A DNA stretch of 64,000 nt from Glaucostegus cemiculus (taxonomy: Eukaryota), in assembly GCA_976551045.1 (NCBI GenBank), contig CDPCPM010000370.1, forward strand, positions 744,001 through 808,000. Direction: 5' to 3'. A program made the position numbers and the translations under genes. The notes under the pieces were generated by a model. It did not search any database and had not been told where the DNA came from. It saw only the letters and a list, made by a program, of their open reading frames with translations. Within the stretch, counting starts at the first letter, position 1, and each line of letters begins with the position of its first letter. Positions 3,919 through 38,938 of the stretch are shown piece by piece.

Positions 3919-4215
3919 CGGCAACAGCGGCCCCTACGCTCTACCCTCTCCTCTCCTGTGAGCAACACAGCCTAGCTGACTCTGTCACCTTCAGCTGTTT
4001 GGCGATGGACTACTCGCCGTTTGGAATCAGCGTTTCCTGGAAGAAAGATAAAGAACCGATCTCTACCGGACTGAAGACCTACCCCGCGGTGTTCAACAAG
4101 AAAGGAACTTACACCCGCAGTAGCCAGTTAACCGTCTCCGAGTCAGAGGTGGGAAACAGCTCCATCTACTGCGTGGTTCGGCACGAGAATTCAGTCAAGG
4201 AAGTCAGAATCCCCG
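3919..4215 (+). CDS. IGHM: IgM heavy chain constant exon Cmu1
   Basis: Acceptor tcttccAG at 3917-3918, donor G|GTTAGT after 4215. Translation [15 protein letters not shown]...[12 protein letters not shown]...VSWKKD...YCVVRH is a C1-set domain with canonical Cys/Trp/Cys plus the light-chain-linking Cys (LSCEQ). Confidence 0.95.
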
Positions 4216-4608
4216 GTTAGTGTTGGGTTCTTTCACCGGAATACATCTTGACTAGAGAGCGTGAGATGTGATAATCAGAGAAACTATGCACAAATTTTGC
4301 AGAAAGTTACTCTTCCTTTCTTTTTCAATATTTTTATCAAAATTTCCTATACTTAACCTAATATGCAGTGGTTAATTCTGTTCTCCATTTCAAACTGCAG
4401 CACACTACGCTGCTATCCACGTACCAGTTTGTGAAGTACGTAGAGTTCCTGTCTCCATGTAGATAATAAAGTTCAGGGCACAGATGTAGAGTCCATATGA
4501 CTACGAGATAATTACCCGCAGGTCCGTCTTCAACCAAGCGACACATAGCCTGGAATCTCACTGGAAGGTGAAAACATTAACGTTAAGGTTGTTGCTCTAA
4601 CTGAGGGG

Positions 4609-4840
4609 TGGCACGATAGCGTAGCGGTTAGCGCGACGCTGTTACAGCGCCAGCGATCGGGGTTCGATACCCGTCACTGACTGTAAGGAGTTTGTGCGTT
4701 CCCCCGTGTCTGCGTGGGTTCCTCCGGGTGCTCCGGTTTGCTCCCACATTCTCAAAGACGTACGGTTAGGTTAATTTGGGGGTTTAAAATGGGCGGCAGA
4801 AAGGGCCTGTAACCACGCTGTAAACAAATAAATAATAAAT
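4609..4840 (+). mobile_element. tRNA-derived V-SINE (HE1-like) in the Cmu1-Cmu2 intron
   Basis: A/B-box head (tagcgtagcggtt..ggttcgat), V-domain core tctgcgtgggtt(t)cctccgggtgctccggttt, (AAAT)n tail. Confidence 0.85.
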
Positions 4841-5366
4841 AATTACCCAAATTCTTCGCGATATTGTTTCGAGGATAGAGCTCAAAACGAGTGAGCATAA
4901 ATATAATGCAATTACAAACACATCCATGGTGATTCAGATGAAGTTTATCTTTCCAGAAATGTAAGACTGTCGAACACGCGAGAATTGGAGCCGACATTAT
5001 TGAGAGCTCAGTCAAAAATCTACAATCATAAAAAGAGAGACATATGGTCAAGGAACAGACACGTCTGCCCATAACGTCCCTACAGACTGTCAAGCACATT
5101 TCTCTGCTGCTCCCACACCAGCACTTGTTGATGTAGATTTTAAAGACACAATTTAGCAGCATCGTGATGAGTCCACGATGGTGAACTATGCAGACGACTG
5201 TATTTATTCAGGCGAAGTGAAGGAAATTATTTGGGGCAAAGTAAAATCCCAATTGAAGCACTTTTCTTTGCGTTGCATTATGCTTTCTTTTTCAAGAAAA
5301 CCATTGTGTTTATCAATGATAGATTGCATGGTAAGACCAATACCAATTAATTTTATTTGTTTCGAG

Positions 5367-5678
5367 ATCGAGTGGTGCGTCATCCAACCGTCAGCATCAC
5401 CGTGAATTCTCCTGAAGAAATCAAAAGGAGCAGAAAAGTGATCGCCATCTGTTCCATCACTGAATTCTGGCCGAAGGCGCTGACCGTGACTTGGCTAAGG
5501 GACGAACAACCCCTGGATTCGGGCTTCGTCACCTCTCCCGCCTTCAACGACAACGGGAACTTCTCGGTGACAAGCCTATTGACATTAACCGCCGGAGAAT
5601 GGTTCCAGGATTCTATTTATACCTGCAAGGTCATTCATAAGGGTGTCACGCAAAGCCAAAAATTCAGCACATCTCAAG
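5367..5678 (+). CDS. IGHM: IgM heavy chain constant exon Cmu2
   Basis: Phase-1 exon (ttcgAG|AT ... caag|GTGAGA): DRVVRHPTVSIT...ICSITEFWPKALTVTWLRD...NGNFSVTSLL...EWFQDSIYTCKVIH, a C1-set domain. Confidence 0.95.
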
Positions 5679-6293
5679 GTGAGAGGCTGGGAGGAAAATT
5701 TCAAATTTCACTGTGTGTCCTGAAGTCATCCCAGGTTTGGACTTTGCTAACATTCGGACAACCTACGATAGGGCAACCCCATGAACAAAATAGCTTCCCA
5801 GAAAAATTCCAACCCCCACCCCCAGCAATGCCCCACTCTCGCCTCGACGCAACAGTTAATGAGCCACTCCCTTCTGTATAGACCCAGACTTCAGACTGTT
5901 TAAGCTGCACTTTAAACCCAGAAATTGAAATCAGTTGGTTTTATGATTTGTCTGACATTTGGAATATTTTGGCAGTAGATTGAAACCACTGCGACTTACT
6001 TCTCGTAGTCTTTATCCCTGGTCTCGAGTTAATATAACAAGTTCAGCTGAGAGGTTGGGAAGTGTCGAAATTACGCGGTTTCAGATGTCGGTTTTGGACA
6101 AAGGCTCCGGAATGAATTGAGTTGTTCATACTGATATTCAATACAAGGTCTGTGTCGTTGGAGTTAAGTAGACAGAGATCACCGGTGAGAGGTTGACACC
6201 TTAACAGGAATGTCCCAAACGGAGAGGAGGGTGAATCTTGTGTTCCATTTTCGGTTGGTGAAGTGTGGCTTGATTTTCATTTCTGTGTCACAG

Positions 6294-6602
6294 ATATTAG
6301 CGCTTGCGGCGAAGAAATAATTACCATTCTTCCACCACCACTGGAGCAGGTCTTACTGGAGGCGACCGTGACCTTAACCTGCGTGATTTCTCATGCACCA
6401 TATGGGGTCTCAGTAACTTGGGGCCAAGGAAGGACACTTTTGAAATCAGAGACTGCCTTCCAGCCCGGAGACACCCCCGACAGCGTGGTCAGCAACGTGA
6501 ACATCTCGACGCAAGCCTGGCTGAGTGGGGATGAGTTCTATTGTCTGGCTAGCCACGAAGAAATGCCGACTCCGCAAAGGGCTTCCATCCGCAAGGACAG
6601 GG
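6294..6602 (+). CDS. IGHM: IgM heavy chain constant exon Cmu3
   Basis: cacAG|AT ... agg g|[37 protein letters not shown]...VTW...[19 protein letters not shown], typical of elasmobranch Cmu3. Confidence 0.95.
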
Positions 6603-36809: not shown

Positions 36810-36837
36810 CACAGTGGAAGGGAGCAGATCAAAAACA
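36810..36837 (+). other. Recombination signal sequence, 12-bp spacer, 3' of the NAR-like V
   Basis: CACAGTG (36810-36816) + GAAGGGAGCAGA (12 bp) + TCAAAAACA (36829-36837). Confidence 0.88.
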
Positions 36838-37152
36838 GTGTGCTGGCAAGATATGCTTTCCTGAGATCCGAAAGCAGAAATGTAAGTGTATGATTATATT
36901 TTCCTAGACTGTAATATGGGTGATAGTCACAATACTGTACACCCTTTCAGGGATTATTCATTGGCACTGCACCCCGTTTTGAGAATCCAGCATTGGCTCT
37001 TGTGGTGGGGCCATTTTGCCAAGAGATCTGTTTCTGAAAGCAGATACATCAAACTGTCCGGTATTGTGAACATGATTTTTTTTAAATTTTAAAAGCGTTG
37101 GAAAAAGTGGTAAGCCTCCAGTAATATTTGCCGGGCTGAGTTAAATGAAGAT

Positions 37153-37191
37153 GGTTGTTGTACCGGGGATACTGAGTGCGGCATTACTGTG
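37153..37191 (-). other. Recombination signal sequence, 23-bp spacer, 5' of the J
   Basis: GGTTGTTGT (37153-37161) + 23 bp + TACTGTG (37185-37191). Confidence 0.85.
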
Positions 37192-37256
37192 TACGTTTCT
37201 ACCCAGAGTACAAGAGTACCAGCTTGGAATTGGGTCCACAGTTACTGTCACAGCCG
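37192..37256 (+). CDS. NAR-TCR J segment
   Basis: Open frame TFLPRVQEYQLGIGSTVTVTA (G-x-G-S-T-V-T-V motif) ending in phase-1 donor G|GTAAT, preceded by a 23-RSS. Confidence 0.85.
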
Positions 37257-38602
37257 GTAATATTCTGGAAACATTGTGCTTTCTTGCGTTTTCCTCGGGA
37301 GATTCAGTGTAATTTATTCTTGGTATCCTGTGATGTCAGTCTTCTTCCAAGTGAAGAAGACCGTATTTCAAAGGGGTTCTGAAAAGTGGTCCAGAGATAG
37401 TGTCGTTAATGGAAGGCACGTCTGGGCGTGAGTCCCTAGAGAATAGTTTTGAGGCCCCAGGAGTAGGTGGATTGGGGATTGTGATGGGAAATAAATGCTG
37501 GGGTGACCAACGATGCCCACATGCCCAATAAATGAATAAATATATAAACGAACAGGAGCACCTGAGCGAAGGAAGACAGAGTGCGAAGAGAGGCAAGGGT
37601 AAATTCGCCGAAAGGTAAGATCAATTTGATTCATACGGCAGGAACTGTTGGGACGTTCGGGAGGTAGCGATGCCGGTCCTGATCACAGCGATTTTAGATT
37701 CACTGGAGGCGTGATGGGGTATTCTGTGGGGAGCAATTGCGATGGATGTGTACATACGCTCTTTTTGTGAAGTCTGGAGAGTTAAATCTTTATTATTAAC
37801 CAGCTGCAGAGAGAGATTGACAAGGGAGATGCTGAGCTGTGAATGACTCTGAAACACCTGTGAAAATAGCACAGACTGATGCCAACTGCCAACTCACAGA
37901 CTGTGGGAAAGGTTCTGGGTTCGAGATAAACCGGATTAAATCCGCAGGCACCACAAAGCGGAATACTTATATCTGAAAAAAATGCAATAAATTTAAATGA
38001 ATGTAAAGCAGAGAAAGACCTGATGCACTGGACGAAACCTGTATAAAACAGAGTATAGCATAATCCAGAGTTGTTTTAAACCATATGTAAAGGTTGATAC
38101 CGTCCCACAGATGCTCAGTACGTGCTGTTGAATCTCACTCCTTTATCCTGGAATCTTGTCGTGCAATAGTCTTTACTGAGCAGGGCCACATGTCTGGAAT
38201 GCTCATCCCGCACTGAGGAGAAAAGGTATTGTTCAAAGGTTTCGCCAAGAATCATGATAGACAAAAATAATTTTATAGAACATTGGAAGGTAATTCCTCC
38301 CATTGTCTATGTGCCGGCTCTATGAACCTTCCCAATTTTTTTCTGCATACTATTTGTTTATTCCCATTAACCTATACATTTTCCCAATTCCCCTTTGATG
38401 ATCACACGTTACTCCCAGCGATTGTCTGTCAGAGAGTTCCCCGCTGCATCATGCCTGGAATAACAGTGAATATAATTTAATAACGTTTGCACATAGTTTA
38501 AGTGAAGGGAACTGGTGAAAAACTGGAACTTACTCCTGTGTCTGACATTGTCCACGCTAATCAAGAGTAAAGTAATCATGATTTTATGTTTAATTCCTAT
38601 AG

Positions 38603-38899
38603 GTTCAATTTCCCCGCAGACACAGAATTTAAAACGTTCTTCTGGCGACACCGTCACTTTAACCTGCGAATATTCCGGTTTCTGTCCGTACACAGTACAC
38701 TGGTACCGGCAGTTCCAAGGACAAGCTCCAAACTTTCTCTGCCAGAGACATACTTCAGGAGAACAGGACAAAGGAAATGCTACAGAAGAACGGATTTCCA
38801 ACTTTCTCGATCGTGACAGGAAAATCAGCCGGTTAACGATCTCTGAACTGCAACTGAACGACTCGGCTGTCTATCACTGTGCACTGAGTGCACGCACAG
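38603..38899 (+). CDS. NAR-TCR supporting TCR Vdelta segment (leaderless)
   Basis: Acceptor cctatAG, phase 1 matching the J donor. GSISPQTQNLKRSSGDTVTLTCEYSGFCPYTVHWYRQ...RLTISELQLNDSAVYHCALS. Non-canonical CDR1 Cys; no convincing leader exon. Confidence 0.9.
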
Positions 38900-38938
38900 C
38901 ACACTGGTGGAGAGCAGGGAGAGTGATGTACAAAAACC
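38900..38938 (+). other. Recombination signal sequence, 23-bp spacer, 3' of the supporting V
   Basis: CACACTG (38900-38906) + 23 bp + perfect nonamer ACAAAAACC (38930-38938). Confidence 0.88.

What the first reader, a model, noticed from the sequence alone, without database searches (positions are those of the whole stretch)
3919..38938. Complete IgM constant region physically linked to, and co-oriented with, NAR-TCR/TCRdelta V segments
Seen: all four Cmu exons, the tailpiece and TM1/TM2 are open with good splice sites, about 12 kb from a supporting-Vdelta pseudogene and about 23 kb from an intact NAR-TCR cassette on the same strand. Established: sharks make IgHV-TCRdelta chimeric rearrangements, and IgH-derived segments occur within shark TCRalpha/delta loci (as I recall, usually with defective constant exons). 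Inference: an apparently functional IgM cluster here could serve B cells and also donate its VH to downstream TCRdelta D/J by simple deletion, a snapshot of the ancestral IgH-TCR linkage.
Basis: partly seen in the sequence, partly recalled or inferred. Interest (0 to 1): 0.75.

Follow-up and report, generated by a model that had tools for sequence, protein, structure and literature searches.

The report
IgM gene nested inside TCR locus
This is an intact antibody (IgM) gene of a cartilaginous fish, partly pre-assembled in the germline and one of 17 lying among the T-cell receptor alpha/delta V segments, a layout already reported in sharks and rays; it points away from the TCR-delta constant gene, so it would need an inversion, not a deletion, to lend its V segment to T cells.

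Summary
The anatomy is confirmed, the proposed mechanism is not. Cmu1-4, tailpiece and TM1/TM2 are open and splice in frame. The VH lies 0.5-1 kb left of the window. It is germline-joined as VD1...D2J, leaving one 22/12 join. The NAR-TCR cassette is open and co-oriented, but is itself V-D pre-joined. The supporting-Vdelta pseudogene is on the opposite strand. The window lies inside a 3-Mb TCRalpha/delta locus on one contig: Calpha, 94 Jalpha, one Cdelta, 9-10 Jdelta and two Ddelta are all on the minus strand at 56-230 kb. So TCRdelta is about 514 kb upstream and inverted relative to this VH, and 'simple deletion to downstream D/J' is refuted. All 17 IgM clusters found in the assembly lie in this V array (TM1: 17 of 17); 13 could join Ddelta by deletion, and 4, including this one, by inversion. 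IgM interleaved with NAR-TCR and TCR V is already listed for great white shark and stingray (PMC12227049, table S1), and VD-DJ germline clusters are known (PMC5192425). Expression is untested: no RNA holder was listed.

The parts
1..3918 (+). J-Cmu1 intron. The cluster's V side lies just left of the window (locus L010; C370 coordinates): leader 743049-743094, VH joined to D1 743209-743521, D1-type 22-RSS 743522-743559, one D1-D2-type intersegment ending in a 12-RSS to 743887, D2 joined to JH 743888-743947
   Evidence: the intersegment scores 194-260 vs D1-D2 of 6 of 6 unjoined clusters tested, 33-65 vs V-D1 or D2-J, shuffle maxima 52-74; the 22-RSS heptamer keeps CAC but has 2 mismatches, the nonamer 1
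3919..4215 (+). Cmu1
   Evidence: one depth-3.4 contig of run X1 lacks a base at 4020
5367..5678 (+). Cmu2 (most diverged C exon; weak GAG acceptor)
6294..6602 (+). Cmu3
9056..9447 (+). Cmu4 with secretory tailpiece (penultimate Cys), internal donor after 9385 for the membrane form, AATAAA near 9475
12656..12783 (+). TM1
12919..12927 (+). TM2 (two codons and stop)
24592..24890 (-). supporting-Vdelta pseudogene: FR2 Trp lost, 4-aa duplication, heptamer decayed, no NAR V found beside it
36334..36376 (+). NAR-TCR leader exon
36527..36837 (+). NAR-TCR V joined to its D in the germline, followed by a 12-RSS (36810-36837)
   Evidence: 18 of 21 cassettes examined are split, with a 22-RSS after V
37153..37256 (+). 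NAR-TCR 23-RSS and J (37192-37256)
38603..38938 (+). supporting Vdelta exon and 23-RSS (38900-38938)

Best explanation
This is a complete IgM minicluster, pre-joined in the germline as VD1...D2J and nested with 16 other IgM clusters among the V segments of the TCRalpha/delta locus, and it likely works in B cells through one remaining RAG deletion between its 22-RSS and 12-RSS. Shown: the exons, the two germline joins, the RSS spacing, the position and the orientation. Inferred: in a B-cell precursor RAG removes the 366-nt D1-D2 interval; CDR3 is then diversified at a single junction, and the chain is spliced to a secreted or membrane mu form. Inferred and less certain: in thymocytes the same 22-RSS could pair with the consensus 12-RSS of Ddelta 514 kb away. 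That would invert the intervening DNA, keep Cmu on the chromosome without its V, and give a VH-D1-Ddelta-Jdelta-Cdelta chain carrying IgH D1 residues in CDR3.
For: Open exons. The lineage is old and has no close paralog: 57-76% mean amino-acid identity per exon to 11 other clusters, terminal branch 0.19 substitutions per site in C and 0.25 in V, yet no stop, and pairwise dN/dS 0.21-0.39 per exon, like the other clusters. Junction anatomy and spacer homology. Locus map: Calpha-like C1 exon at 56 kb, 94 J at 62-158 kb, a single-copy C1 exon at 198 kb, 9-10 J at 210-229 kb and two D with 12/23 RSS, all on minus. 17 of 17 TM1 matches and all 17 Cmu4 matches above 70% identity lie on this contig. 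Rearrangement within miniloci and partial IgH rearrangement in shark thymocytes are reported (PMC2435157, passages). IgM V to TCRdelta chimeras are reported (PMC5931798, passages).
Against: No transcript was seen. The remaining heptamer has 2 mismatches and the Cmu2 acceptor is weak. One low-depth contig shows a 1-nt loss in Cmu1. Pairwise dN/dS mixes this lineage with shared history, so recent loss of function is not excluded. Cdelta and Calpha are named by position and C1-type sequence; no database hit named them. J scans covered only part of the 3.07-Mb contig (1.23 Mb held).
Confidence: 0.72

Rival explanations
1. One reading: the VH joins downstream TCRdelta D/J by simple deletion.
For: The RSS types are compatible (22 with 12), and the geometry holds for the 13 minus-strand IgM clusters.
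Against: The only Cdelta-like exon is upstream and on minus; the genome-wide search gave 2 matches among 63 candidates, the second at E 5e-4 on another contig. No plus-strand TCR J was found in the stretches scanned, which include 644-913 kb and the contig end.
Confidence: 0.04
2. The cluster is a recently silenced relic: exons still open but the last join or Cmu splicing no longer works, as for many neighbouring V pseudogenes.
For: Non-consensus heptamer, GAG acceptor, the 1-nt loss in one contig; 8 decayed V segments in the window; at least 3 of 17 clusters are visibly broken.
Against: All coding exons, leader, tailpiece Cys, polyA signal and TM are intact despite a long private branch. CAC and the nonamer are kept.
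Confidence: 0.17
3. The cluster is kept mainly as a V donor for TCRdelta (by inversion), and Cmu is a passenger.
For: 19 of 28 NAR-TCR V on the contig are also inverted relative to Cdelta, so inversion is probably routine here; Ddelta 12-RSSs are at or near consensus.
Against: Cmu1-4 and TM1 show the same low dN/dS as V, which a passenger would not.
Confidence: 0.07

Closest known systems
Elasmobranch antigen receptor complex (AgRC), Flajnik et al. 2025, PMC12227049
   Same: IgM miniclusters linked to TCRalpha/delta, with TCR-type V exons between them. Table S1 lists great white IgM about 39-42 kb from NARTCR entries, and stingray IgM among TCRad V and NARTCR V.
   Different: That table rests on NCBI gene models and, in the parts I read, gives no RSS or D/J analysis, no deletion-versus-inversion analysis and no complete IgM count. 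Here all 17 IgM found are inside the V array, 13 co-oriented with Cdelta and 4 inverted.
Partially germline-joined IgM clusters (VD-J, VD-DJ) of cartilaginous fish, review PMC5192425
   Same: The VD-DJ configuration is named there as a germline form.
   Different: Here 7 of 17 clusters are partly joined, in four different patterns, inside the TCR V array; two share the VD-DJ geometry.
NAR-TCR (Criscitiello 2006; seen only through passages in PMC12227049, PMC5931798, PMC6795676)
   Same: Leader, NAR V, D, J, then a supporting Vdelta with its own 23-RSS.
   Different: V-D is pre-joined in this cassette. Germline-joined NARTCR is hinted at in table S1 ('V(gj)') for great white.
IgHV-TCRdelta chimeric rearrangement in nurse shark (Criscitiello 2010, Deiss 2019; not read, known from citing passages and recall)
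   Same: VH with a 23-type RSS on the same DNA molecule as Ddelta.
   Different: This VH carries D1 and is inverted relative to Cdelta; no chimera was observed here.
IgM1gj of nurse shark (PMC5192425 passage)
   Same: Divergent IgM with germline RAG joins.
   Different: IgM1gj is germline-rearranged and has three C domains; this cluster still needs one join and has four.

Membership tests
Elasmobranch IgM minicluster | four C1-set Cmu exons, secretory tailpiece with penultimate Cys, TM1/TM2 | tested here: met
Elasmobranch IgM minicluster | own VH, D1, D2, JH just upstream in the same orientation | tested here: met
   present as VD1...D2J
Elasmobranch IgM minicluster | RSS pair able to complete VDJ (12/23 rule) | tested here: inconclusive
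   spacers 22 and 12 are compatible, but the heptamer has 2 mismatches; cleavage not assayed
Elasmobranch IgM minicluster | expressed as mu chain | not testable with these tools
   no RNA holder listed
NAR-TCR cassette | leader, NAR V, D, J, then a supporting Vdelta with 23-RSS, J donor in phase with its acceptor | tested here: met
   D pre-joined to V
NAR-TCR cassette | extra Cys in NAR V FR1 and in supporting Vdelta CDR1 (feature recalled, from no call) | tested here: met
   both are visible in the translations
NAR-TCR cassette | expressed three-domain delta chain | not testable with these tools
   no RNA holder listed for the Cmu query; the cassette itself was not queried
VH donor for IgHV-TCRdelta chimeras | 23-type RSS in cis with a Ddelta 12-RSS | tested here: met
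   513,640 nt apart
   VH on plus, D-J-C on minus
VH donor for IgHV-TCRdelta chimeras | chimeric transcript observed | not testable with these tools
IgM1gj-type germline-joined IgM | fully joined VDJ and three C domains | tested here: not met
   one join remains and four Cmu exons are present
TAILV (TCRdelta-associated Ig-like V) | Ig-like V without its own D-J-Cmu (feature recalled) | tested here: not met
   this VH has D2J and Cmu

The most novel reading that the evidence does not exclude
The animal's whole IgM repertoire is nested inside the TCRalpha/delta V array, so B and T cells share one recombination domain. 'Trans' VH-TCRdelta joins are then ordinary in-locus joins (13 VH by deletion, 4 by inversion), a deletional join of a distal Valpha to Jalpha would excise every IgM gene on that allele, and this VD1-prejoined VH would make a TCRdelta chain with an IgH D in CDR3 through a 514-kb inversion.
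Probability: 0.35. Interest if true: 0.6.

Novelty: new member of a known kind. Interest (0 to 1): 0.35.

Why it matters
The linkage itself is published. What this locus adds is a complete map on one contig that turns a general idea into testable predictions. If orientation limits VH use in TCRdelta, the 13 co-oriented VH should dominate the chimeras; if not, the 4 inverted ones should appear too. This VH carries a built-in tag (its joined D1), and an inversion would leave a signal joint on the chromosome at a known place. It also bears on how B cells keep rearrangement inside a minicluster when about a hundred compatible TCR RSSs lie on the same stretch of DNA.

Tried and rejected
Expression: no RNA holder listed; only two low-coverage DNA contig sets of one sample. 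Laid on the VH region they did not cover the V-D1 junction, and the listed pieces begin beyond the D2 side of the D2-J junction, so the joins have no independent support; I did not lay reads across any N stretch. Naming Cdelta by database: the search for homologous proteins gave no hit among 33 candidates and PDB gave only generic C1 domains; the name rests on position. Common origin of the two VD-DJ clusters (this one and the one at 1.29 Mb): same junction geometry, but trees of V, C, D1-D2 spacer and J intron do not group them with support, and their spacers are 57% identical, no closer than to others; unresolved. Branch-specific dN/dS was not obtained, so selection on this lineage alone is open; only pairwise values exist, for 12 of 17 clusters (5 left out: 3 broken, 2 incompletely fetched). 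Germline signal joints as footprints of past inversions: none in the 1.23 Mb held; the single heptamer-pair match lacked nonamers. IgM elsewhere in the genome: the next Cmu4 matches are about 40% identical; 2 spot-checked loci (C132, C117) have a different domain series and tailpiece, read as IgNAR/IgW-like; the others were not opened. Cmu2 skipping as in IgM1gj (loss of Cmu2 there is recalled): considered because of the weak acceptor, but Cmu2 dN/dS (0.36) is ordinary. Earlier findings of this scan: none. Literature searches; none of the listings or passages read reported a full IgM census inside the V array or the orientation split. Ott 2021 was not held, Deiss 2019 was not requested, and figure 1 of PMC12227049 is not viewable, so either point may be in print.
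Full report
Setting. The window is G000:C370:744001-808000 (+) on a 3.07-Mb contig of a 2.85-Gb assembly. The genes show a cartilaginous fish; I did not try to name it. I fetched 120 stretches of 10 kb, which with the window gave 1.23 Mb of the contig.

Observation. The constant region is as described. Cmu1 (3919-4215), Cmu2 (5367-5678), Cmu3 (6294-6602) and Cmu4 with tailpiece (9056-9447) splice to a stop-free secreted chain. An internal donor after 9385 leads to TM1 (12656-12783, read) and TM2 (12919-12927). 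All four domains are C1-set, and Cmu4 hits IgM first in the PDB. The Cmu2 acceptor is a weak GAG; of 15 Cmu2 acceptors read, 13 are AAG and 1 is CAG. The supporting-Vdelta pseudogene is 11,650 nt beyond TM2 but on the minus strand. The NAR-TCR cassette starts 23,407 nt beyond TM2 on plus.

Upstream. The VH lies just outside the window (C370 743049-743947). It is not the usual V-D1-D2-J. The intact V end is followed by about 9 nt like D1, a 22-spacer RSS, a 366-nt interval ending in a 12-spacer RSS, and D2 fused to J. The 366 nt align to D1-D2 intervals of 6 of 6 unjoined clusters tested (scores 194-260) and not to V-D1 or D2-J (33-65; shuffle maxima 52-74). This is a germline VD-DJ cluster with one join left. 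By my reading, 7 of 17 clusters are partly joined: 2 VD-DJ, 1 VD-D-J, 1 V-D-DJ and 3 V-DD-J. The window's NAR-TCR cassette also has V and D pre-joined. Of 21 cassettes examined (of 28 on the contig), 18 are split, one is VD-J (this one), one V-DJ and one VDJ. A review names VD-J and VD-DJ as known germline forms (PMC5192425, passages).

Is it functional? Among the 12 clusters with stop-free V, Cmu1-4 and TM1 in hand, this one is among the most diverged (mean identity V 57%, Cmu1 74%, Cmu2 58%, Cmu3 71%, Cmu4 76%). It sits on a long private branch, has no stop, and shows pairwise dN/dS of 0.21-0.39. That favours long-term selection but is not a lineage-specific test. Against: the remaining heptamer has 2 mismatches, and one contig of depth 3.4 in run X1 lacks one base in a TTT run of Cmu1. 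The same data set shows two other single-contig 1-nt indels in introns, so an error is plausible but unproven. No RNA holder was listed.

Where TCRdelta is. A single-copy C1 exon lies at C370 197.9-198.2 kb on minus. Above it are 10 J segments (9 under the filter) and two D segments with 12- and 23-type RSS at 229.4 and 229.9 kb. Below it are 94 J segments (88 plus 6) and another C1 exon at 56 kb. All are on minus. This is the standard D-J-Cdelta-Jalpha-Calpha order; the names rest on position, as no database named the exons. V segments run from 237 kb to 3.03 Mb in both orientations. No plus-strand TCR J was found in the stretches scanned, including the far end of the contig. The window's VH and NAR-TCR cassette therefore point away from Cdelta. 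The VH RSS is 513,640 nt from the Ddelta 12-RSS, and a join must invert the DNA between them.

The array. TM1 finds 17 matches among 17 candidates, all on C370. Cmu4 finds 17 at 74-100% identity there, and the next best is 41% (150 of 524 candidates scored). Cmu1 finds 16 (the 17th has an internal deletion). The clusters span 368 kb to 2.04 Mb, 13 on minus and 4 on plus, mixed with 28 NAR-TCR V (19 plus, 9 minus) and many TCR V. The assembly has 1,511 contigs, so missing clusters cannot be excluded. Linkage does not depend on the window's N stretches, since the 100 kb to the left has none and carries TCR V and a NAR-TCR cassette.

How it likely works. In B-cell precursors RAG likely makes the single D1-D2 deletion, giving a mu chain whose CDR3 varies at one junction. 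Rearrangement within miniloci is the reported rule (PMC2435157, abstract and passages). That paper also reports extensive partial IgH rearrangement in thymocytes, and chimeras of IgM or IgW V with TCRdelta D-J-C are reported (PMC5931798, passages). Nesting in the TCR V array would account for both; that is inference. For this VH a chimera would need inversion and would carry IgH D1. With 19 of 28 NAR-TCR V also inverted, inversion is probably usual here. I put T-cell use of this VH at about one in three.

What is known. Flajnik et al. 2025 (PMC12227049; I read the abstract, introduction, first results section, part of the second, one discussion section and table S1 in full, and searched the PDF supplement by term) report IgM, IgW and IgNAR linked to TCRalpha/delta in four elasmobranchs, with TCR-type V exons between IgH clusters. 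Their table lists IgM between NARTCR and TCRa/dV entries in great white shark and stingray, several not flagged as pseudogenes. The finding is thus a new member of a known arrangement. I found no full census or orientation analysis in searches, but Ott 2021 was not held and Deiss 2019 was not read.

Verdict. Real, well formed and known in kind; the proposed deletion mechanism is wrong for this cluster. Interest 0.35. The most novel reading, a wholly nested IgM repertoire feeding TCRdelta by both deletion and inversion, has probability about 0.35 and would merit 0.6.

Noticed in passing
window 61079-62011 (+); 20110-20760 (+); 17086-17568 (-); about 41400-41720 (-): Single-exon rhodopsin-family GPCR genes lie between the V segments: one open 311-aa frame and a broken copy hit 7tm_1; two more look like decayed copies by eye (the 17-kb one had no Pfam hit, the 41-kb one was not scanned).
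   Followed up: partly
window 27.4-27.6k (-), 43.4-43.7k (+), 47.4-47.6k (-), 49.6-49.9k (+), 52.1-52.3k (+), 55.6-55.8k (+), 63.45-63.7k (-): Seven further decayed TCR V segments in both orientations.
   Followed up: partly
L045 (C370 about 1.291 Mb, +): A second VD-DJ IgM cluster with the same geometry (RSS at 303 and 661, J at 694, against 302, 661, 694 here) but only 55% V identity; one ancient join or two independent ones is unresolved.
   Followed up: partly
L095 (C370 1,350,713, +) and L096 (C370 1,396,780, +): A fully germline-joined NAR-TCR VDJ, apparently in one frame, and a V-DJ cassette.
   Followed up: no
C370 237.7k (-), 260.1k (+), 610.5k (-), 1131.9k (+), 1137.7k (+), 1191.1k (-): Ig-like V segments 34-39% identical to the VH and away from any Cmu; likely TAILV-type (label recalled).
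   Followed up: no
Cmu2 acceptors of the C370 clusters: Weak AAG acceptor in 13 of 15 read, GAG here; Cmu2 skipping could give three-domain mu chains.
   Followed up: partly
window 4020: One-base loss in a TTT run of Cmu1 in a single depth-3.4 contig of run X1: sequencing error or a null allele.
   Followed up: no
L056 (C370 about 2.037 Mb, -): The distal IgM cluster has a VH of a different family (45% identical to this VH) and the most diverged spacers.
   Followed up: no
C132, C117 and other contigs: IgNAR-like and IgW-like clusters are on other contigs; whether they join C370 on one chromosome, as in the published complex, cannot be told from this assembly.
   Followed up: partly
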